Under the pieces are notes generated by a model. It had not been told where the DNA came from. It saw nothing but the letters and a program-made list of their open reading frames with translations, and made no database searches. The position numbers and the translations under genes are program-made. From a virus, in the IMG/VR virus record IMGVR_UViG_3300037515_000251, positions 7,926 to 71,925 of that record: a stretch of 64,000 nucleotides of DNA; one strand, 5' to 3'. Shown piece by piece: positions 13,845 to 46,466 of the stretch (the first letter of the stretch is position 1; every line of letters begins with the position of its first letter).

Positions 13845-14208
13845 CGGGGGTTTCCTCTGTCTGAATCCGTGCTTCCCAGATACCGTTGAAGCCGGGCACA
13901 GGGATGAGCAGCACGTCGCCCTGCCGCTGTATTGTTGGCCGCGCAGGATCTAGCAGTAACGGCCCATGCCGATCCTCTCCCGGCTCGACGGGAGCCAGAT
14001 TCGACGGGTCTTTGCCGTGGATGATCCGCACCGTCACGTCGTCGCCAACGACGCGGATCAGGGCGCGGGAATCGAGTTCGTACATCTCGACGAGATGTTC
14101 GTCTTGCGTAGCCACGGCGTGCATGTGGCCGGTGACTTCACCGAGGGCCAGCGGGCGCAAGGGAATGCGCTTGGCTCCAGGTGGTACGTGCGCTGAAGTG
14201 TTCTTCAT
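13816..14208 (-). CDS. hypothetical protein
   Basis: 130-aa ORF; palindromic motif and GGAGA-like SD ~20 nt upstream. Confidence 0.4.
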   Translation of the reverse strand: MKNTSAHVPPGAKRIPLRPLALGEVTGHMHAVATQDEHLVEMYELDSRALIRVVGDDVTVRIIHGKDPSNLAPVEPGEDRHGPLLLDPARPTIQRQGDVLLIPVPGFNGIWEARIQTEETPDAVIKSVAD

Positions 14209-14235
14209 GGTGTTCTCCTTTGTCTCAGATTAACG

Positions 14236-14250
14236 GTGTCAAACTGACAC
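14236..14250. repeat. genome-wide palindrome copy (GTGTCAAACTGACAC)
   Basis: ~27 nt upstream of minus-strand start at 14208. Confidence 0.9.
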
Positions 14251-14253
14251 CGG

Positions 14254-14502
14254 CTAACGGCGGTCCCCTGAAATGATCCTGGATACAAGACTCTGGCTGA
14301 CCCCATACGCTTCGGCGATGTCCGACTGGTTGTAGGATTCCGCCAGAATGCAGATTGCCTTTCGTTGGACGGCTGACAACATGCGTGGAGGCCCTGCCTG
14401 ATTGCGGCGTTGCCCCGAACGGTAACGTCCCCACAGCGCCCTCAACTCCTCATCACTGAGGGTTGTAGAGCAGTGGGGGCAGCGAGTGACCAGCAGCGGC
14501 AT
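14254..14502 (-). CDS. small Zn-ribbon/HTH DNA-binding protein
   Basis: CPHCS N-terminus, C-terminal HTH-like ICILAESYNQSDIAEAYGVSQSLVSRII (sigma-r4/LuxR-like). Confidence 0.4.
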   Translation of the reverse strand: MPLLVTRCPHCSTTLSDEELRALWGRYRSGQRRNQAGPPRMLSAVQRKAICILAESYNQSDIAEAYGVSQSLVSRIISGDRR

Positions 14503-14801
14503 TAACTAGCGAGTTGGGCTTCGATGGCCTCGATCTCTTTTCGCAGCGCAGTCTTCTTCTCGGTCGGCGTCTTGAGCAGTTCGAGTTGCTGCCGGGCCTG
14601 CCGCTGGTGCCGGATGAGATCGGCCCGAATGCGGGATTTGATTTCGACGTTCAGCGTCTCGACCGAATGCCCCACCCATTCGGGGGGATCGATCTTGAGG
14701 CGCTTATACTCGTCGGTAAGGCTCTTCGCAAACGCACTCAGGGACACCAAGCCGTCGAGTTCAAGGCGGTCAACATTGACCTGCCGGAGTTGTTCAAGCA
14801 T
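14502..14801 (-). CDS. hypothetical coiled-coil protein
   Basis: 99-aa ORF, start overlaps stop of upstream gene. Confidence 0.35.
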   Translation of the reverse strand: MLEQLRQVNVDRLELDGLVSLSAFAKSLTDEYKRLKIDPPEWVGHSVETLNVEIKSRIRADLIRHQRQARQQLELLKTPTEKKTALRKEIEAIEAQLAS

Positions 14802-16254
14802 ATGCCATCTCCTTTTTCGGTTGTTTCAACACGACTTCGAGCCGCAACAGCGGCGCGGCCATCACTTCGTCGATCAGGCTGTAGCGGTTGGTCCGCATGG
14901 TCTGAACGAGGTTCGGAATCGAATACTGATCGACTCGCTGGTTCGTCAGATCGAACATCTGAAGGTCCAATCCGGCGTGCTGCATGGCCGCTCCGAGATA
15001 GTTCGGGTCGCCCGCCAGCCGGTAGAGATATACCGGAACATCTTTGCCGGTTTTCTGCGAATACTTCTGGAACTCGACAGGGAACGCGGGGACGTTGTTC
15101 TCGCCGCCATCCGAAACGATGGCGATTCCGTCAATCTCTATCCCGCGCTCCATGATGTACTTCAACCCGCAGCCGATCGAGGTTCCGCCTTGCGCCGTGA
15201 CGAATCGCGTGAGGGTGTTGATCTCGTCGAGCGTCTTGCCGGTCACGTCGAGGTAGGTCGGCATCGTGTTGAAGAACACGAGATGGACCTTGCCGGCCGC
15301 CAGCCGTGCCAATACCCCGGCGATCTCGCGGGCGGCGGTAATCGCCGTGTGCATGGACGCGCTTTGATCGGCCAGTACAAGCCAGTCGCCCTCGACACTG
15401 GCTTTCGACAACTTCGCTTCCTGGACGGCCTTCACCTTCTCGCGCAATCCTTCGTCGTCGAGGGATTCGACCGCCTTGGTCAGCTTCAACGCCGACGATT
15501 TGCCGTCCCGCGCCTTCGACAGCGCAGCCTCAAGGGCGGAGCGCAGGGCCGGATTACTCTTGACGCCAAGCCGTTCCAGCATCTTCATGTTGTTGCCGAG
15601 CTCCGCCGGAGTCATCCGGTCGATCAGCGCAAGCAGAACATCGGTATCCTTCAGCCGCGGCCCGATCGCGCCGGCCGCGATCAGAAACGGGATACGGTGC
15701 TCGATAACGGTTGCCGCAGCTTCCGCCGGCGGAAGGTTCTTCAGGTTCGCAATGACGGCGAACACCGAGTTGGGCGGATACGAGCGCTCAAATAGAATCT
15801 TGGCCGCGAACGCCGCTGGCTTGACGTGCAGCATCGCGTAAAGCGACTTCAGGGCGGCCCGGTGCTGGACCGCTGTACGGTTCCATTGCTTGCGATCAGC
15901 TTCAAGAGAACGCAGGATTGATTCCCCGAGGCGCCGTAGCCGCCGGGACCATCGCGCTTTCGTGCCATCGCAACGCAGTGCCCGAATGAATTCGCGCGGC
16001 GGAAGCAACGCCAGATGCGCGGCGGCATTATCGGTGAATTCCGGCGCACTGGGAGATTCCAGCGCAACCAGCGGCAACGCCACCTTGCTGTCCCGCACGG
16101 TGCCCTTGATGCGGTTCCACGAGATCAGGTGAGCGTAGAACTCGGGATCGCTGGCGTGTGCTTCGCGGGCGATCGGGAAGTAGGATGCCAGATCGCGGTG
16201 AGACGACTTGGCGAGATTCGCAATGATTTGCTGCTTGGTGATGCCGGTTTCCAC
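14794..16254 (-). CDS. rsr: Ro60/Rsr-like protein (helical TROVE-like N-terminal region + C-terminal vWA domain with MIDAS motif)
   Basis: C-terminus LADQSASM…GGTSIGCGL…IVSDGGENN…YSQKTGKDVPVYLY parallels Ro60 vWA (ALDVSASM…GGTDCSLPM…FTDNETFAG…YRKKMDIPAKLIV); ~300-aa alpha-helical N-terminal domain; 486 aa. Confidence 0.55.
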   Translation of the reverse strand: METGITKQQIIANLAKSSHRDLASYFPIAREAHASDPEFYAHLISWNRIKGTVRDSKVALPLVALESPSAPEFTDNAAAHLALLPPREFIRALRCDGTKARWSRRLRRLGESILRSLEADRKQWNRTAVQHRAALKSLYAMLHVKPAAFAAKILFERSYPPNSVFAVIANLKNLPPAEAAATVIEHRIPFLIAAGAIGPRLKDTDVLLALIDRMTPAELGNNMKMLERLGVKSNPALRSALEAALSKARDGKSSALKLTKAVESLDDEGLREKVKAVQEAKLSKASVEGDWLVLADQSASMHTAITAAREIAGVLARLAAGKVHLVFFNTMPTYLDVTGKTLDEINTLTRFVTAQGGTSIGCGLKYIMERGIEIDGIAIVSDGGENNVPAFPVEFQKYSQKTGKDVPVYLYRLAGDPNYLGAAMQHAGLDLQMFDLTNQRVDQYSIPNLVQTMRTNRYSLIDEVMAAPLLRLEVVLKQPKKEMAYA

Positions 16255-16400
16255 GGGAACCCCCTTGGAGTTACGGAGAGTCGGGTCAGCGTTTTAGGCT
16301 TTGCAGGCGTGTAGGCTGTCCAGTATCCGTAAAATTAATTCGCGGAATGCCAGTAACCGCCAAACTTGATGCCGGGATGTCGATGAGCAGTTCCGCCTTG

Positions 16401-16472
16401 CGGCGTCGGCTGGATTTGAACCAGCTACCTAAAGTTTTCAAAACTTTCGCTCTACCAATGAGCTACGTGTAT
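16401..16472 (-). ncRNA. tRNA-like RNA (D-arm, anticodon-like arm with loop UUUGAAA, T-arm GCUGGUUCAAAUCCAGC) lacking a pairing acceptor stem; candidate Y RNA (YrlA-like tRNA mimic) or partial tRNA
   Basis: minus-strand sequence …ACACG-UA-GCUC-AUUGGUA-GAGC-G-AAAGU-UUUGAAA-ACUUU-AGGUA-GCUGG-UUCAAAU-CCAGC-CGACGCC-G; 5' heptamer AUACACG cannot pair with 3' CGACGCC; 3' tail forms CGCC-GCAA-GGCG GNRA hairpin; T-arm identical to tRNA at 46386. Confidence 0.5.
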
Positions 16473-16556
16473 GCTCAGCAGTGCCCGGCAAACCATTAAG
16501 TTACCACAACTGCATGATGCTGTCAAGCGCCGATGCAAAAATAATTTGGGGTCTTC

Positions 16557-16571
16557 GTGCCAAACTGACAC
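16557..16571. repeat. genome-wide palindrome copy (GTGCCAAACTGACAC)
   Basis: between gene end 16575 and tRNA-like RNA. Confidence 0.9.
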
Positions 16572-16574
16572 CGG

Positions 16575-17288
16575 CTAATTCCCGATTAAGTGCTGCCGCC
16601 GCGCCTCATCGACTTCGTTGAGGATCGCGCCTTTCATGCAGTCCACCTTGTTGTCGTGGCCGTCGCCGGAGAGTAGCGCGAGTTCGTCCGATTCCAGCAG
16701 GTCGGCGAACGCCTCCGCCGCGTCGGCACTCAGTTTCTTGGCGAACTCCGCGATCCTCTGGACGTGCGGGGCGGCTCCATTCTCGAGAACCCACACCCGC
16801 ACGCAAACCGGGATGTTCGCCCCGGCCGCTACGGCTAGTTGGTGGGTCGGCATGGTCTTCGCCTTCTCGATCAGGTCGGGCTTGATGTGGCCGTTGATCT
16901 GCTCGTGCCGGGCGAGAAAATTCCCATTCGAGACGCTGATCTCGCCGCGATCTTCGGGCGAGAGTTGCTGAAGCGCCTTGCTCGACGCCAGGAACATCGC
17001 CCGCCCGGCGGTGCCCTCGCTGATCCCGAAGTGAGCCAGCCCGGACTTGCGGAACTCGGTCCAGGTCTTGCAGCCGAGTCCCTCGTAGAGTCCGCGGTCC
17101 TGAATCAGCAGCAGCAGGTTGCCGAGCGCGACCCGCATGTTGATCTCGGCGGCCTGAAGGAACTTGTCGGCCTGGCCGAACGCAGTCAGGTAGTCGCGCG
17201 TGGCGGCGGCGTCGAGTTCGGGGATGTTCGCCGCATCCTGCCAGTGGCGGATGACATCGAGCGGTTGGGATTCGGTGAGTTCGGTCAT
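16575..17288 (-). CDS. hypothetical protein
   Basis: ORF 16575-17363, likely start MTELTESQ at ~17288. Confidence 0.4.
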   Translation of the reverse strand: MTELTESQPLDVIRHWQDAANIPELDAAATRDYLTAFGQADKFLQAAEINMRVALGNLLLLIQDRGLYEGLGCKTWTEFRKSGLAHFGISEGTAGRAMFLASSKALQQLSPEDRGEISVSNGNFLARHEQINGHIKPDLIEKAKTMPTHQLAVAAGANIPVCVRVWVLENGAAPHVQRIAEFAKKLSADAAEAFADLLESDELALLSGDGHDNKVDCMKGAILNEVDEARRQHLIGN

Positions 17289-18400
17289 TGGGGTAGTTGG
17301 TTGTGCTCCACGCCGTCGAGCAGGCGGCCGGCGGCGTGCTTGCCGACGCGCTCCATGAACCACGAATGGTCGTCTGGACGATAGATGTCTCCGCTATCTA
17401 CTTGTCCTGTTGGCGAGACACGCACCGTGCGATCCGGTTGAGCCTCAAAGAGAACTGATGGCGTAATGTTGTCCGTGAAAGAATCGGCGCAACCTACTGG
17501 CTGAAACTCGCCCCACTGTTTGAAAAAATGGGCCGTGCCAGCCACCTTGCACTGATCCCTGATACTTCTAAACCAGTCGGGATGCGCGGGCCGTGCGCCG
17601 GGGCCTGACTCGCCGCCGGAGATGATCCAGTCGAGGCGCGGCGGTAGAGCTTCGACGCAGAGATGATGATCCCCATGAGTTGCCGCATCCCTGGTGCCGT
17701 AGCCACACTTGGGGCAATAAAGGAATGCGCTGAAGTCCACCGGCCCCAAAGCTGGCTCGTAGCTCACGAACCGCACGGCAGCCGAGGTCTTCAGCAGCCA
17801 CGGGATACGCTCATCGGCGTACTTCTGGTTCTCGGCGGAAACGCCGAGCCAGACGTTCGGAAGGGGCCAGCCACCGGGAACCATGCCGTCCCGTTGCGTA
17901 GGAAGGATGGCCCCATAATGTGGTGATCCCAATAGCTGTTGTGCGGCTACGTTCAGATCGTGAAAGCGCTCTGCACCGTTTACCCCAGACGCCCATTTGT
18001 ACATCCGCTCCGCCCGCTTGGTCAGCACCATGTGGCGATGCTGCGGGGTGAGCGCCATCACGGCGAAACACTGGTCGATCCACTCGTCGGGCACGAGCGA
18101 CCAGAACATGTCCGTCATCGAGCACCAGAAGTACGCCGTGGGCTTGCGGCGGCGAAGCACCTGCTGAAGCACGGCTTGGTCAAGGTAAATCTCGATTTCC
18201 CCGTTCGTGTACTTCTCCGGGGCTTCGTCGAAACTGGGTAGCCCAAAGCGGTGCTGTTCGCGAGAGCTATAGCAGAACACGCAGCCCGGAGAAACCTTCG
18301 CGCAGGCATGGCCGGAGCGTTTGCCGTGCCTGCGGTCGGCCCATCGCGCCCGGATTGGGTTGATCGTGAACTGGGTCCACTCGATGCTTGATTTAGCCAT
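17285..18400 (-). CDS. DUF5131 / phage Gp37-Gp68 family protein
   Basis: N-terminus MAKSSIEWTQFTINP…SPGCVFCY resembles the conserved IEWT…NP…C..C start of the Gp37/Gp68 family. Confidence 0.5.
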   Translation of the reverse strand: MAKSSIEWTQFTINPIRARWADRRHGKRSGHACAKVSPGCVFCYSSREQHRFGLPSFDEAPEKYTNGEIEIYLDQAVLQQVLRRRKPTAYFWCSMTDMFWSLVPDEWIDQCFAVMALTPQHRHMVLTKRAERMYKWASGVNGAERFHDLNVAAQQLLGSPHYGAILPTQRDGMVPGGWPLPNVWLGVSAENQKYADERIPWLLKTSAAVRFVSYEPALGPVDFSAFLYCPKCGYGTRDAATHGDHHLCVEALPPRLDWIISGGESGPGARPAHPDWFRSIRDQCKVAGTAHFFKQWGEFQPVGCADSFTDNITPSVLFEAQPDRTVRVSPTGQVDSGDIYRPDDHSWFMERVGKHAAGRLLDGVEHNQLPQ

Positions 18401-18603
18401 TTGCCTTCCCCCTCAGCCGTCCGTCCATCGCCTGCCAGCCAGCCACCCAAGCATCGCGCAGGAACCTACTGGCGTACTCGTCCGGGGCCTTTGATTCGCT
18501 ATTCAGCCGTTCCTCGCAGCCGCACGTCCACCACACCCGCTCGATCCCGCCGGGAACGCCAGTGAACACTTCGCCGTTCGATGCCTTGTAGGGCGTGTTC
18601 TCG

Positions 18604-19026
18604 TCACGCGCCATGGGGTTCCCCCTTCAGCTTGCGGAGGGCGTCGCGGGCAGCCTCGAACGCAGAAAGCCCATCAGGTCCGACCAGGGGCCATCCTTCC
18701 AATTCGTTCCGAAAGAACTCTAGCTTCAGCGCCGCCTCCACCACGCGCTTCTCGGCGGCACCAACTTCCCTGTCCTTGGCTGCTCTGGCGTCTTGGGCGG
18801 CCCACTTTTCGCGCTTGGCGGCGTCCCGTTTGTCCCGCTTGGCCTTCACGGTCGGGGGATGGTGGAGTCCGCAGTACCACTTGCCCTTGTGCTGGAGGCT
18901 GGCATTATAGGCGCAGCGTTGATTGCCGAATCTGGAACTCCAGGCTTTGTGCTCGCACGTATGCTTCTCGCTCATGCCCCCTGCCCCTCCACCTTCGCCC
19001 GCAACTGCCCGTAGGGACAGCGGCAA
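18604..19026 (-). CDS. hypothetical Cys/His-rich protein
   Basis: 140-aa ORF; start uncertain. Confidence 0.3.
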   Translation of the reverse strand: MPLSLRAVAGEGGGAGGMSEKHTCEHKAWSSRFGNQRCAYNASLQHKGKWYCGLHHPPTVKAKRDKRDAAKREKWAAQDARAAKDREVGAAEKRVVEAALKLEFFRNELEGWPLVGPDGLSAFEAARDALRKLKGEPHGA

Positions 19027-24015: not shown

Positions 24016-25050
24016 GGGAAAACGTTTCATCGCGATGAGGTCCATTAGCAGTTCCTCGGCTACCTCGCGGCTCGGCTCCAGCGGCAGCATAGAACGGTCC
24101 CGAGCGGCCTTCGCCTCCGCGAACAATTCCTCGGCGCATTCTTTCACTGTCTCGATGGACCACTCCCCGCGCTTGATGGCGAGAAGTTCATCGGCATCCC
24201 GCTCGCGGTAGACGTTGAGCGTGCCCGAGTCGAGAAACTCCCGGCACATCCTCAGCAGCCGAATGCAATGAGCGGCGTGCTTGGTGTCGTATCCGCGCTC
24301 CAGGATCAGGCGCTTGCGCTTCTCACCCAGGTAGCCGAGATTCGAGTTCTTGGAATGAAACGCCTTCAACTTATCGCGGAGATGCTGATCTTCGTGGAAC
24401 GCGAAAATGGTGGTTTCCTCAACCGGGAACTTCTCGCCGCGATGCTGCGGATGAATCCCGCGTTGCTTCATCTCGGCAACGAGTTCAAGGTAGTCCTGCA
24501 ATGTCGCCCGGTCGAGGCATTCCATCCGTTCCAACTGCCCCGCCGCGTATCCGGCGAACGGCTTGTAGACATGGCGACCGATGAACAGCGCGCGATTCGC
24601 TATGAGCAAATTGCTGAGTGGGGAAGCGACAATCCGGTGTTCGGGCCTTGTCCACAGTGAGCTCATGATGTTGGGATTCCCGGCCAGCAGCAGCGAGAAA
24701 GCCTTGCGGAGTTCGTAGAACAACAGGTCGAACTTGCCCTGCTTGGTTTCCTTGGTGCCGCGAGAACCCCATTCGGTGAGGCCGATGTAGTGCGCTTTCG
24801 GGGCCACGGCAAACCCGATCACGTCCACGTCGTCCACCGAATGCGGATCGCTCTCGGGCAGATACATGCCGTGCGCCACTGAGCCTCGAAAGGCCGCGAA
24901 GATCACATCGTCCGGCAGGATTGCGCTGAACCCGTCCATGTGTGGGATAAACGCTCGGGTGCTGGCCCCGAGTCCAGGACTCGAACCTGGATTCTCCGGT
25001 CCACAGCCGGGTGTCTTAACCTGTTGAGACGAACTCGGGATTTCATTCAT
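24004..25050 (-). CDS. pol-beta superfamily nucleotidyltransferase (GS-x9-DxD) with helical C-terminal domain
   Basis: FRGSVAHGMYLPESDPHSVDDVDVIGF minimal NTase motif; palindromic motif + GGAGA SD 11 nt upstream of ATG at 25050. Confidence 0.55.
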   Translation of the reverse strand: MNEIPSSSQQVKTPGCGPENPGSSPGLGASTRAFIPHMDGFSAILPDDVIFAAFRGSVAHGMYLPESDPHSVDDVDVIGFAVAPKAHYIGLTEWGSRGTKETKQGKFDLLFYELRKAFSLLLAGNPNIMSSLWTRPEHRIVASPLSNLLIANRALFIGRHVYKPFAGYAAGQLERMECLDRATLQDYLELVAEMKQRGIHPQHRGEKFPVEETTIFAFHEDQHLRDKLKAFHSKNSNLGYLGEKRKRLILERGYDTKHAAHCIRLLRMCREFLDSGTLNVYRERDADELLAIKRGEWSIETVKECAEELFAEAKAARDRSMLPLEPSREVAEELLMDLIAMKRFPVSV

Positions 25051-46385: not shown

Positions 46386-46466
46386 CGGGGCGTAGCTCAG
46401 TCAGGCCGAAGGAGCGCTCGGTTTGGGACCGAGAGGCCGCTGGTTCAAATCCAGCCGCCCCGACCA
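46386..46466 (+). tRNA. tRNA, anticodon UGG (Pro) predicted, genomically encoded CCA, unusually long D-loop
   Basis: CGGGGCG-UA-GCUC-(13-nt loop)-GAGC-G-CUCGG-UUUGGGA-CCGAG-AGGCC-GCUGG-UUCAAAU-CCAGC-CGCCCCG-A-CCA; 7/7 acceptor pairs. Confidence 0.65.

What the first reader, a model, noticed from the sequence alone, without database searches (positions are those of the whole stretch)
16395..16480. tRNA-like RNA without a functional acceptor stem immediately upstream of the Ro60-like gene: candidate Y RNA (YrlA-type tRNA mimic)
On the minus strand the element has a canonical D-arm (UA-GCUC-AUUGGUA-GAGC), an anticodon-like arm (AAAGU-UUUGAAA-ACUUU), a 5-nt variable loop, and a T-arm GCUGG-UUCAAAU-CCAGC that is identical to the T-arm of the tRNA at 46386. 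The 5' heptamer (AUACACG) cannot pair with the 3' heptamer (CGACGCC). Instead the 3' segment folds into a CGCC-GCAA-GGCG GNRA hairpin, and the flanks show partial complementarity (GCCGGG / CCCGGC, GUAAC / GUUAC) that could form a long imperfect helix. Bacterial YrlA-type Y RNAs are tRNA mimics encoded next to rsr. This pairing, same strand and ~150 nt upstream of the Ro60-like ORF, fits that arrangement. Alternatives are a partial tRNA left at a former attP site or a decayed tRNA gene.
Basis: partly seen in the sequence, partly recalled or inferred. Interest (0 to 1): 0.85.

Follow-up and report, generated by a model that had tools for sequence, protein, structure and literature searches.

The report
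Phage Y-like RNA with tRNA mimic
A 121-base structured RNA gene sits just upstream of a highly diverged Ro60-type gene in a phage genome. It carries an almost complete tRNA look-alike on a conserved stem and belongs to a large, undescribed metagenomic family related to bacterial Y RNAs.

Summary
Window 16467-16407 (-) matches the Rfam tRNA model at 52.6 bits, but only over positions 6-65, and ARAGORN calls no tRNA there. The full element is 16490-16370 (-). It has a 7-bp terminal stem (P1), a conserved internal loop (N-ACUG opposite CGACU) and a second stem (P2). A UACAYG junction follows, then D, anticodon, variable and T arms in normal tRNA order. The acceptor is only 2 bp and is capped by a GNRA hairpin.

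The 486-aa gene downstream folds as Ro60 (TROVE ring plus vWA), although Pfam TROVE does not detect it. The same RNA design lies upstream of its homologues in 48 of 61 non-duplicate related loci, always on the gene's strand. Covariation is strong: 96.7% of cells paired and a score of 0.86, against 0.19 for shuffles, on 24 sequences not used to build the model.

A second, 62-nt module without a tRNA domain lies at 16332-16271. A conserved 99-aa gene follows the Ro60-like gene.

I read the element as a Y-RNA-type partner of the Ro60-like protein. It is not a YrlA member in the strict sense. It lacks the GNCGAA motif, is not circularly permuted and keeps an anticodon arm. I rate it a new variant of a known kind. 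Binding and function are inferred, not shown.

The parts
16498..16526 (-). Promoter-like sequence: TTGACA (16526-16521), 17-nt spacer ending in TGG, then TAACTT (16503-16498). The -10 element ends 7 nt before the first base of the RNA stem.
   Evidence: Read. The consensus scan did not call it, because only 3 of 6 positions match in the -10. Similar hexamers precede the first module in several related loci. This part is inference only.
16370..16490 (-). Module 1, the whole element (121 nt). In order: P1, internal loop, P2, UACACG junction, tRNA-like body, GNRA hairpin, P2', CGACAU, P1'.
   Evidence: The minimum-free-energy fold equals the comparative structure, z = -3.19, with 0 of 200 shuffles as stable. 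Model R1 scores 110.7 bits (this sequence was in the training set). Covariation is shown.
16484..16490 (-). P1 5' strand, UGCCGGG. It pairs with 16376-16370 (CCCGGCA).
   Evidence: All 7 P1 pairs show changes on both sides. P1 is 98.8% paired in 24 independent homologues. There are 88 distinct P1 strands among 102 modules.
16479..16483 (-). 5' side of the conserved internal loop, C-ACUG.
   Evidence: ACUG occurs in 82 of 102 non-redundant modules. The variants ACUUG and ACUUU co-vary with CAGACU and AAGACU on the 3' side.
16472..16478 (-). P2 5' strand, CUGAGCA. It pairs with 16389-16383 (UGCUCAU): 6 bp plus one C-U mismatch.
   Evidence: P2 pairs carry compensatory changes.
16466..16471 (-). 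Conserved junction UACACG. Its last two bases (C16467, G16466) pair with C16408 and G16407 as a 2-bp acceptor remnant.
   Evidence: UACAUG occurs in 72 of 102 modules and UACACG in 25 of 102, across all module classes. The Rfam alignment pairs model positions 6-7 with 64-65.
16407..16467 (-). tRNA-like body: U8-A9, D arm (16463-16449), anticodon-like arm (16447-16431, loop UUUGAAA, 'anticodon' UGA), 5-nt variable loop, T arm (16425-16409).
   Evidence: Rfam RF00005 scores 52.6 bits over model positions 6-65. ARAGORN makes no call. Positions 15:48 co-vary across homologues, U:A 20, A:U 10 and G:C 3 of 47.
16394..16405 (-). GNRA-capped hairpin, CGCC-GCAA-GGCG. It stands where the outer acceptor stem and CCA end would be.
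   Evidence: A stem of at least 3 bp closed by GNRA follows the T arm in 28 of 47 class A homologues, with many different stem sequences.
16377..16382 (-). 3' side of the conserved internal loop, CGACAU (family consensus CGACUY).
16351..16364 (-). Orphan 5' half of a module (UUUGGCGGU-U-ACUG). It has no UACAYG junction and no 3' partner.
   Evidence: Read. The same 'AAGUUUGGCGNN-ACUG' lead begins many intact modules in other loci. R1 does not match it as a module.
16271..16332 (-). Module 2 (62 nt). It has the same P1 / ACUG / P2 / UACACG ... CCGACUC / P1' core but no tRNA-like domain. It ends 16 nt before the start codon, abutting the AAGGGGG ribosome-binding site.
   Evidence: R1 scores 33.8 bits, E 1.7e-6, over model positions 1-121 with the tRNA part deleted. 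It was not in the training set. Short modules of this kind occur in 19 other places.
14794..16254 (-). Ro60-like protein gene (486 aa, GTG start): helical-repeat ring plus a C-terminal vWA domain with an intact MIDAS motif.
   Evidence: The AlphaFold2 model has pLDDT 82. The top 13 Foldseek PDB hits are all Ro60/TROVE over the full length, E 5e-10 to 1e-6. The family profile hits the phage phiLo TROVE protein at E 1.9e-4. Pfam detects only VWA_CoxE. D295, S297, S299, T357 and D381 are invariant.
14502..14801 (-). Conserved 99-aa helical protein gene. It overlaps the Ro60-like stop codon by 8 nt.
   Evidence: tblastn finds it directly downstream of the Ro60-like gene in 58 of 69 loci, often overlapping it. 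It has no hit in Pfam, PHROGs or NCBIfam.

Best explanation
Window 16490-16370 (-) encodes a small structured non-coding RNA of the Y-RNA kind. It is the partner of the Ro60-like ring protein encoded 116 nt downstream.

The 5' and 3' ends pair into a long stem (P1 plus P2). The stem is interrupted by a conserved asymmetric internal loop, 5'-N-A-C-3' opposite 5'-A-C-U-Y-3', closed by a U-G pair. A conserved single-stranded UACAYG follows.

I infer that this invariant core is the docking site for the Ro60-like protein. It is the only part shared by all module classes, and in known Y RNAs the Ro60 site lies in the stem formed by the two ends.

The distal 'head' is an L-shaped tRNA mimic with D, anticodon, variable and T arms and a conserved 15:48 tertiary pair. 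Its acceptor helix is reduced to 2 bp and capped by a GNRA hairpin. It therefore has no free CCA end. It cannot be charged and is a poor RNase P substrate.

The head would present a tRNA shape to tRNA-binding factors while tethered to the ring protein. Candidates are modification enzymes, nucleases and possibly host anticodon nucleases. It could act as an adaptor or as a decoy.

A second, head-less module (16332-16271) and a conserved 99-aa protein complete the cassette. The RNAs are probably transcribed from a promoter just upstream of module 1. They may be made as one precursor with the mRNA.

Shown: the sequence, the fold, covariation, linkage to the gene, and the Ro60 fold of the protein.
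Inferred: transcription, protein binding, and the role of the tRNA mimic.
For: - tRNA-like body without an acceptor stem: Rfam tRNA 52.6 bits over positions 6-65, with no ARAGORN call.
- The MFE fold equals the comparative structure, z = -3.19.
- Neighbouring protein: full-length structural matches to Ro60 from Deinococcus, Xenopus, human and phage phiLo. The family profile hits the phiLo TROVE protein, E 1.9e-4.
- Conservation: model R1 finds 190 matches in 61 related loci, all on the gene's strand. Window-type modules scoring at least 65 bits occur in 48 of 61 loci.
- Covariation in the 25 training sequences: 93.5% paired, score 0.67 against 0.17 in shuffles.
- Covariation in 24 sequences not used for training: 96.7% paired, score 0.86 against 0.19 in shuffles and 0.07-0.13 with slid partners.
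- Test selected only on the 5' motif: 115 of 115 hits lie upstream of the gene on its strand, with none on the other strand. 80 of 115 have a perfect 7-nt complement anchored after the 3' motif, against 5-10 in controls.
- The Levitt pair co-varies and the GNRA cap recurs.
- Module 2 was found independently by the model.
- Literature: bacterial and phage Ro60 genes have two or more Y RNAs just upstream on the same strand. One carries a tRNA-like domain with a loop-closed acceptor and no CCA (PMC4201824; 10.1101/312249; PMC12135203).
Against: - There is no expression or binding data of any kind.
- The known Ro60-binding motifs (GGUCCGA in animals, GNCGAAN0-1G in bacteria) are absent, so binding to the stem is argued by analogy.
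- The consensus scans found no sigma-70 promoter or intrinsic terminator.
- Module 2 abuts the ribosome-binding site. Part of the array may therefore act in cis on the mRNA and not as a free RNA.
- Some relatives of module 1 carry a complete acceptor stem followed by NCCA. The stem may have a role in tRNA biogenesis and not only in tethering.
Confidence: 0.8

Rival explanations
1. The element is a cis-acting leader. The stem-loop modules are part of the 5' UTR of the Ro60-like mRNA. They serve as operators through which the protein, or a tRNA-binding factor, controls translation or stability of its own message. On this view they are not free trans-acting RNAs.
For: - Module 2 ends 16 nt before the GTG start, directly against the AAGGGGG ribosome-binding site.
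- No terminator lies between the modules and the gene.
- In about 12 of 42 loci the last detected module ends 16-60 nt from the start codon.
- M. smegmatis YrlA and YrlB are also processed from one precursor upstream of rsr (PMC4201824).
Against: - In many loci the modules lie 0.2-1.6 kb upstream, separated from the gene by ordinary tRNA genes or other modules.
- Each module is an autonomous unit closed by its own stem.
- Arrays reach six or more modules, more than an operator needs.
- This reading does not exclude the Y-RNA reading.
Confidence: 0.25
2. The element is a tRNA-handling cassette. The conserved leader-trailer duplex is a processing or storage signal for an embedded tRNA. The window copy would be a degenerate member whose tRNA has lost its acceptor end.
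For: - 14 of 49 window-type modules in other loci have an acceptor stem of at least 6 of 7 bp.
- About 7 of these are followed by a discriminator base plus CCA, for example in L041, L016, L009, L023 and L062. ARAGORN calls many of them tRNAs.
- M. smegmatis YrlA is cut by RNase P and receives CCA (PMC4201824).
Against: - The acceptor-less, GNRA-capped form is the majority (28 of 47). Its hairpin stems co-vary, so it is maintained and not decaying.
- Head-less and permuted modules share the same core, so the core has a function independent of any tRNA.
- The window copy has 2 of 7 acceptor pairs and no CCA.
Confidence: 0.1
3. The element is a decayed tRNA gene, or the tRNA-derived half of a former phage attachment site, with no function of its own.
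For: - Its T arm and D stem are identical to those of the phage's own tRNA-Pro at 46386-46466.
- It lacks an acceptor stem.
Against: - The non-tRNA flanks are conserved and co-vary in dozens of phages that share only about 50% protein identity in the neighbouring gene.
- The element always lies on the strand of, and upstream of, the Ro60-like gene.
- attP sites typically retain the 3' end of a tRNA including the acceptor strand, which is exactly the part missing here (general knowledge).
- All four helices of the tRNA-like body are intact.
Confidence: 0.02

Closest known systems
YrlA RNAs of bacteria and mycobacteriophages (S. Typhimurium, M. smegmatis; Chen et al. 2014, PMC4201824; structure 10.1101/312249)
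   Same: - Encoded just upstream of, and on the same strand as, a Ro60-type gene.
- Long stem formed by the 5' and 3' ends.
- A tRNA-like head with T and D arms and tRNA tertiary nucleotides.
- A loop-closed acceptor helix and no free CCA.
- Accompanied by a second, simpler Y RNA.
- A U-A-C junction after the stem resembles the conserved YUAY.
   Different: - No GNCGAAN0-1G motif. Both strands of a different internal loop are conserved here (ACUG / CGACU), whereas only the 5' strand is conserved in YrlA.
- The head is in normal tRNA order with a real anticodon arm. The stem leaves from the acceptor position, whereas YrlA is circularly permuted with the stem replacing the anticodon stem.
- The partner protein is too diverged for Pfam TROVE to detect.
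Deinococcus radiodurans Yrn1
   Same: It is a Y RNA whose effector domain can be drawn as a tRNA-like cloverleaf with a T arm and an anticodon-like arm (PMC4201824).
   Different: - Yrn1 has only partial D-loop features, a 6-nt 'anticodon' loop and no variable arm. It carries the animal-type Ro60-binding helix.
- The window RNA has a full D arm, a 7-nt anticodon loop with U33, a 5-nt variable loop and a different stem motif.
Thermus phage phiLo Ro60 with Yrl1/Yrl2 (PMC12135203; PDB 9KOP, 9L5Y)
   Same: - A phage-encoded Ro60 with two Y-like RNAs immediately upstream.
- It is the best structural and profile match to the window protein.
   Different: - The phiLo RNAs were identified by the CGAA motif, and the paper does not mention a tRNA-like domain.
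- Model R1 finds nothing in the phiLo locus.
- Sequence identity between the proteins is about 17%.
YrlB / Yrn2-type short Y RNAs
   Same: Module 2 (16332-16271) is a short stem-loop RNA. It sits between the tRNA-like Y RNA and the Ro60-type gene and shares the stem motif of its larger neighbour.
   Different: The motif sequence differs, and nothing is known about its loop.
Tandem YrlA-like modules upstream of the canonical TROVE gene of Xanthomonas phage Alcala (seen here, L073 1186-1800)
   Same: - An array of four stem-enclosed modules on the gene's strand, three of them with T arm, closed acceptor and D arm.
- The same UUAC junction follows the stem.
   Different: - The stem motif is GGUG(U/A)AG... 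/ ...UGUUCCCC, not ACUG / CGACU.
- All tRNA-like heads are of the permuted type.
- R1 matches only the tRNA-like part, at 20 bits.

Membership tests
Y RNA (Ro60-associated non-coding RNA, general class) | Encoded close to a Ro60 orthologue and on its strand (the rule in bacteria and phages) | tested here: met
   The 3' end lies 116 nt upstream of a gene whose product has the Ro60 fold. The same linkage holds in 48 of 61 related loci, and all 190 model matches are on the gene's strand.
Y RNA (Ro60-associated non-coding RNA, general class) | Long stem formed by pairing of the 5' and 3' ends, containing a conserved bulge or internal loop | tested here: met
   P1 and P2 both show compensatory changes. 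The conserved loop is N-ACUG / CGACUY.
Y RNA (Ro60-associated non-coding RNA, general class) | Known Ro60-recognition sequence in the 5' strand (GGUCCGA in animals, GNCGAAN0-1G in bacteria) | tested here: not met
   Neither motif is present in the stem of 16490-16370 (sequence). The 5' strand reads GCCGGGCACUGCUGAGCA.
Y RNA (Ro60-associated non-coding RNA, general class) | Physically bound and stabilised by Ro60 | not testable with these tools
   This needs co-immunoprecipitation or a gel-shift assay.
YrlA subfamily | T and D arms with tRNA tertiary-interaction nucleotides | tested here: met
   The Rfam tRNA alignment shows U8, A14, G18-G19 and the T loop UUCAAAU. Positions 15:48 co-vary across homologues.
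YrlA subfamily | Circularly permuted order (V, T arm, closed acceptor, D arm), with the Ro60-binding stem continuing as the anticodon stem | tested here: not met
   The order here is D, anticodon arm, V, T, capped hairpin. Permuted modules do occur in other loci of the same family.
YrlA subfamily | Acceptor helix closed by a loop; no free CCA end | tested here: met
   A 2-bp remnant plus CGCC-GCAA-GGCG, and no CCA.
YrlA subfamily | Conserved YUAY at the exit of the stem | tested here: inconclusive
   The window has AUAC (A, not a pyrimidine, at the first position). Relatives have UUAC, CUAC, AUAC or GUAC within UACAYG.
tRNA (Rfam RF00005) | D, anticodon and T arms of the cloverleaf | tested here: met
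   52.6 bits against a gathering score of 29.
tRNA (Rfam RF00005) | Seven-base-pair acceptor stem with discriminator base (and CCA) | tested here: not met
   The match covers model positions 6-65 only. Two of 7 positions pair. ARAGORN makes no call.
Ro60 / TROVE protein (the neighbouring gene) | Ring of helical repeats followed by a vWA domain | tested here: met
   The model has pLDDT 82. The top 13 PDB matches are Ro60 proteins over about 485 aligned columns, TM 0.51-0.59.
Ro60 / TROVE protein (the neighbouring gene) | MIDAS motif in the vWA domain (DxSxS ... T ... D) | tested here: met
   D295, S297, S299, T357 and D381 are invariant in 35 homologues.
Ro60 / TROVE protein (the neighbouring gene) | Sequence match to the Pfam TROVE domain | tested here: not met
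   Pfam gives only VWA_CoxE, 28 bits. NCBIfam gives nothing. Only the family profile reaches the phiLo TROVE protein, E 1.9e-4.

The most novel reading that the evidence does not exclude
The cassette is a phage ribonucleoprotein 'display rack'. It comprises the module array, the diverged Ro60 ring and the 99-aa protein. One conserved docking stem carries interchangeable heads. These heads are capped tRNA mimics with varied anticodon loops, permuted tRNA mimics, apparently complete tRNAs with CCA (some with stop-codon-reading anticodons), and non-tRNA hairpins.

On this reading the phage would decoy or redirect host tRNA-targeting enzymes, such as anticodon nucleases and modification or repair enzymes. 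Alternatively it would store and release tRNAs under the control of the ring protein. That would be a use of Ro60 not described for any system.
Probability: 0.2. Interest if true: 0.8.

Novelty: new variant of a known kind. Interest (0 to 1): 0.62.

Why it matters
Ro60 and Y RNAs are conserved from bacteria to humans, yet what the tRNA-like domain of bacterial Y RNAs does is still unknown.

This family is large. It has 389 clusters at 50% identity with E <= 1e-30. It is almost absent from cultured phages, with 2 weak hits among 50,697 GenBank records. Annotation does not see it, because Pfam TROVE misses the protein and Rfam sees only a partial tRNA.

The family offers a natural series of head designs on one conserved docking stem:
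- complete tRNA;
- capped tRNA mimic;
- permuted mimic;
- no head.

That series could show which features of the tRNA shape matter and what they recruit.

It also gives a second, independent solution for attaching a tRNA mimic to a Ro60-binding stem, at the acceptor and not the anticodon. In addition, the docking motif is new.

On the practical side, such elements will be miscalled as tRNA genes or pseudogenes in phage genomes. ARAGORN calls many of the relatives as tRNAs.

Tried and rejected
1. Rfam at E <= 10 over 15800-17000 returned only tRNA. No described Y RNA family or other family matches.
2. Sequence search of the protein against PDB chains gave nothing useful. The fold search and the profile search were needed.
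3. The sigma-70 and terminator consensus scans found nothing in 16100-16700. The promoter I list is read by eye.
4. blastn of 14000-19000 against GenBank phages hit only the unrelated DUF5131 gene.
5. The genome collection gave only 7 loci, all metagenome-assembled genomes of mixed phyla. No host can be inferred.
6. The word-indexed search for the 99-aa protein found only near-identical copies.
7. Model R1 on four canonical TROVE phage loci matched only ordinary tRNAs with broken stems. I therefore rejected the idea that this is simply the known YrlA family.
8. Apparent full-length R1 matches to ordinary tRNAs downstream of the gene in related loci are forced alignments with many non-pairs. 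I rejected them as modules.
9. Six of the 13 IMG/VR matches to an RNA-only pattern had no Ro60-like gene, and R1 did not confirm them. I treat them as chance matches.
10. An early acceptor-stem count was off by one base in register. I redid it.
11. The neighbours DUF5131, the 262-aa ORF, DUF6745 and the HTH gene are not conserved with the cassette.
Full report
**1. The observation**

On the minus strand the window reads as follows:

UGCCGGG-C-ACUG-CUGAGCA-UACACG-UA-GCUC-AUUGGUA-GAGC-G-AAAGU-UUUGAAA-ACUUU-AGGUA-GCUGG-UUCAAAU-CCAGC-CG-A-CGCC-GCAA-GGCG-GAAC-UGCUCAU-CGACAU-CCCGGCA

This covers 16490 to 16370.

- Rfam's tRNA model matches 16467-16407 at 52.6 bits, against a gathering score of 29. 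The match covers model positions 6-65 only.
- ARAGORN finds only the tRNA-His at 24963-25039 and the tRNA-Pro at 46386-46466.
- No other Rfam family matches the region, even at E <= 10.
- The T arm is identical to that of the tRNA-Pro.
- Only 2 of 7 acceptor positions can pair.
- Folded alone, the 121-nt RNA gives P1, P2, D, anticodon and T arms and the GNRA hairpin as its minimum-energy structure. The z-score is -3.19, and none of 200 shuffles is as stable.

The proposed GUAAC/GUUAC extension has no comparative support.

**2. The neighbouring gene**

ORF 16254-14794 (-) encodes 486 aa. Its sequence-level matches are weak:

- Pfam sees only a weak VWA_CoxE match.
- PHROGs gives 'RNA-binding protein' at 1e-7, over the C-terminal part only.
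- NCBIfam and a PDB sequence search give nothing.

An AlphaFold2 model built from 35 homologues has mean pLDDT 82. Its 13 best Foldseek matches in the PDB are all Ro60/TROVE proteins aligned over the full length. They include phage phiLo, Deinococcus Rsr, Xenopus and human Ro60, with E from 5e-10 to 1e-6.

A profile of the family reaches the phiLo TROVE protein by sequence at E 1.9e-4. The MIDAS residues of the vWA domain are invariant. The gene is therefore a strongly diverged Ro60.

The family is large:

- 754 or more proteins in the word-indexed search.
- 389, 683 and 1225 clusters at 50% identity with E <= 1e-30, 1e-10 and 1e-3.

It is almost confined to metagenomes:

- 2 weak hits among 50,697 GenBank phage records.
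- 7 metagenome-assembled genomes among 185,579 species genomes.

The window itself is a phage. It encodes a terminase, RecT and an O-like replication protein. It comes from JGI metagenome 3300037714, where no gene is called in the 320-nt intergenic region.

**3. Comparative evidence for the RNA**

I fetched 62 viral loci that encode homologues of about 40-52% identity. A simple scan showed that the space upstream of the gene is filled with units of one design:

P1 (7 bp) / N-ACUG / P2 (usually 7 nt per strand) / UACAYG / variable insert / P2' / CGACUY / P1'

*A test that selects only on the 5' motif.*
- All 115 non-redundant hits lie upstream of the gene on its strand. None lies downstream or on the other strand.
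- 80 of 115 have a perfect 7-nt complement anchored just after the 3' motif.
- The controls give 5 (shuffled 7-mers) and 10 (reversed 7-mers).

*Covariation in the training alignment.* An alignment of 25 window-type units (A2) gave a consensus structure with 27 pairs. Of these, 23 show double changes. The alignment is 93.5% paired, with a covariation score of 0.67 against 0.17 for shuffles and 0.10-0.13 for slid partners.

*Search with the model.*
- The covariance model built from A2 finds 190 matches in 61 loci, all on the gene's strand.
- Window-type units of at least 65 bits occur in 48 of the 61 loci.
- The 24 best units from loci not used in training are 96.7% paired. Their covariation score is 0.86, against 0.19 for shuffles and 0.07-0.13 slid. 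P1 is 98.8% paired, and all seven P1 pairs change on both sides.

*The core across 102 non-redundant units.*
- ACUG occurs 82 times.
- The variants ACUUG and ACUUU co-occur with CAGACU and AAGACU. This fits a closing U-G pair plus inserted pairs, leaving a 3-by-4 internal loop N-A-C / A-C-U-Y.
- UACAUG occurs 72 times and UACACG 25 times.
- There are 88 different P1 strands.

*The tRNA-like head.*
- Positions 15 and 48 co-vary: U:A 20, A:U 10 and G:C 3 of 47. This argues that the L-shaped tertiary fold is kept.
- A stem of at least 3 bp capped by GNRA follows the T arm in 28 of 47 units, with many different stem sequences.

**4. What else is in the window**

- The model finds a second unit at 16332-16271 (33.8 bits, E 1.7e-6). 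It has the same core but no tRNA domain, and it ends 16 nt before the GTG start.
- Between the two units lies an orphan 5' half (16364-16351).
- A TTGACA-17-TAACTT promoter-like sequence ends 7 nt before the first base of P1. The consensus scan did not call it. Similar hexamers precede first modules elsewhere.
- A 99-aa helical protein gene overlaps the stop codon of the Ro60-like gene. It is present in 58 of 69 loci. No other neighbour is conserved.

**5. Diversity of the family**

The inserts fall into classes:
- A: tRNA-like in normal order, the window type.
- B: permuted, with T arm, closed acceptor and D arm, sometimes followed by an anticodon arm.
- Short, head-less units.
- Other hairpins, many of them with a C-rich/G-rich stem.

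My regex detects one to six units per locus, which is a lower bound. Class A is most often the first unit, in 20 of 42 loci.

Class A is itself graded:
- 14 of 49 units have an acceptor stem of at least 6 of 7 bp.
- About 7 of these are followed by a discriminator base and CCA, for example in L041, L016, L009, L023 and L062. Rfam scores L041 at 67 bits over positions 1-71.
- The majority, including the window copy, have a 2-4 bp remnant plus the GNRA cap.
- Anticodon loops keep U33 and a 7-nt size, but the 'anticodon' varies widely.

**6. Comparison with what is known**

Bacterial and phage Ro60 genes are known to have Y RNAs just upstream on the same strand. Usually one has a tRNA-like domain (YrlA) and one is a simpler hairpin (YrlB) (PMC4201824). 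YrlA is a circularly permuted tRNA mimic. Its acceptor stem is closed by a loop, it has no CCA, and the Ro60-binding stem continues as the anticodon stem. Only the 5' strand motif GNCGAAN0-1G is conserved (PMC4201824; 10.1101/312249). Phage phiLo Ro60 binds two upstream Y-like RNAs that were identified by the CGAA motif (PMC12135203).

The window RNA shares:
- the genomic arrangement;
- the terminal stem;
- the tRNA mimicry;
- the closed acceptor;
- the short companion RNA.

It differs in:
- the docking motif, which here is conserved on both strands;
- the topology, which is not permuted and has an anticodon arm, with the stem attached at the acceptor;
- the partner protein.

My model finds no such stems in four canonical TROVE phage loci. 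Xanthomonas phage Alcala has four tandem YrlA-like units with yet another stem motif, but with the same UUAC junction. This suggests a common origin with diverged docking sites.

I found no paper in the searchable library that describes this family.

**7. Mechanism and rivals**

Best reading (confidence 0.8): this is a Y-RNA-type partner of the Ro60-like protein. The invariant core is the docking site. The capped tRNA mimic is an effector-binding or decoy head.

Transcription, binding and the role of the head are inferred. I rate docking on the core at about 0.7, and I cannot yet choose between tether and decoy.

Rivals:
- A cis-acting autoregulatory leader (0.25, not exclusive). It is suggested by module 2 abutting the ribosome-binding site.
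- A tRNA-handling cassette of which the window copy is a capped derivative (0.1).
- A decayed tRNA or attP remnant (0.02). The covarying non-tRNA flanks and the strict linkage to the gene contradict this.

**8. Verdict**

The element is not a strict YrlA member. It represents an undescribed, widespread phage variant of the Ro60/Y RNA system.

Noticed in passing
window 16271-16332 (-): A second, 62-nt module has the same P1 / ACUG / P2 / UACACG ... CCGACUC / P1' core but no tRNA-like head. It directly abuts the ribosome-binding site of the Ro60-like gene. It is analogous to YrlB.
   Followed up: yes
window 16351-16364 (-): An orphan 5' half of a module (UUUGGCGGU-U-ACUG) has no junction motif and no 3' partner. 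It is probably the remnant of a deleted module.
   Followed up: partly
window 14502-14801 (-): A 99-aa helical protein gene overlaps the stop codon of the Ro60-like gene. It is conserved in 58 of 69 loci and has no hit in any family library. It is a likely third component of the system, with unknown fold and role.
   Followed up: partly
window 46386-46466 (+) compared with 16407-16468 (-): The phage's tRNA-Pro(UGG) shares CGUAGCUCA, GAGCG and the 19-nt GCUGGUUCAAAUCCAGCCG with module 1. The tRNA-like head may have been copied from, or homogenised with, a phage tRNA gene.
   Followed up: partly
L041:1118-1244, L016:2682-2807, L009:1909-2037, L023:1381-1508, L062:2631-2754, L028:1625-1761: Window-type modules in other phages contain an apparently complete tRNA, with a 6-7 bp acceptor stem, a discriminator base and an encoded CCA. 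The tRNA is enclosed by the conserved stem. They look like tRNAs with a Y-RNA-like leader-trailer duplex.
   Followed up: partly
L023:1405-1475 and L066:1973-2044: ARAGORN reads the embedded tRNA-like heads as having anticodons UCA and UUA, which would read the UGA and UAA stop codons. The L023 copy has a near-complete acceptor stem and ACCA, so it could be a suppressor tRNA.
   Followed up: no
L073 (Xanthomonas phage Alcala, MW822537.1) 1186-1800: Four tandem, unannotated YrlA-like modules lie upstream of a canonical TROVE gene that is annotated only as hypothetical. Their stem motif (GGUG(U/A)AG... / ...UGUUCCCC) differs both from GNCGAA and from the window family.
   Followed up: partly
L065, L025, L019, L041 and other related loci: The Ro60-like cassette usually sits inside or beside large phage tRNA gene clusters, with up to 22 tRNA genes in 7.5 kb. 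The canonical Ro-like genes of Arthrobacter phage Atuin and Gordonia phage Trax are placed the same way.
   Followed up: no
related loci, e.g. L017:2214-2334, L011:1711-1849, L014:1211-1344: A recurrent non-tRNA head carries a long C-rich/G-rich hairpin (CCCCCUCCACC ... GGGGGG), often followed by a GCAA-capped hairpin. It is a separate module class of unknown nature.
   Followed up: no
window 16498-16526 (-): A perfect -35 hexamer TTGACA is followed by a 17-nt spacer ending in TGG and a weak -10 TAACTT. This places a likely transcription start at the first base of the RNA stem. The consensus scan did not call it.
   Followed up: partly
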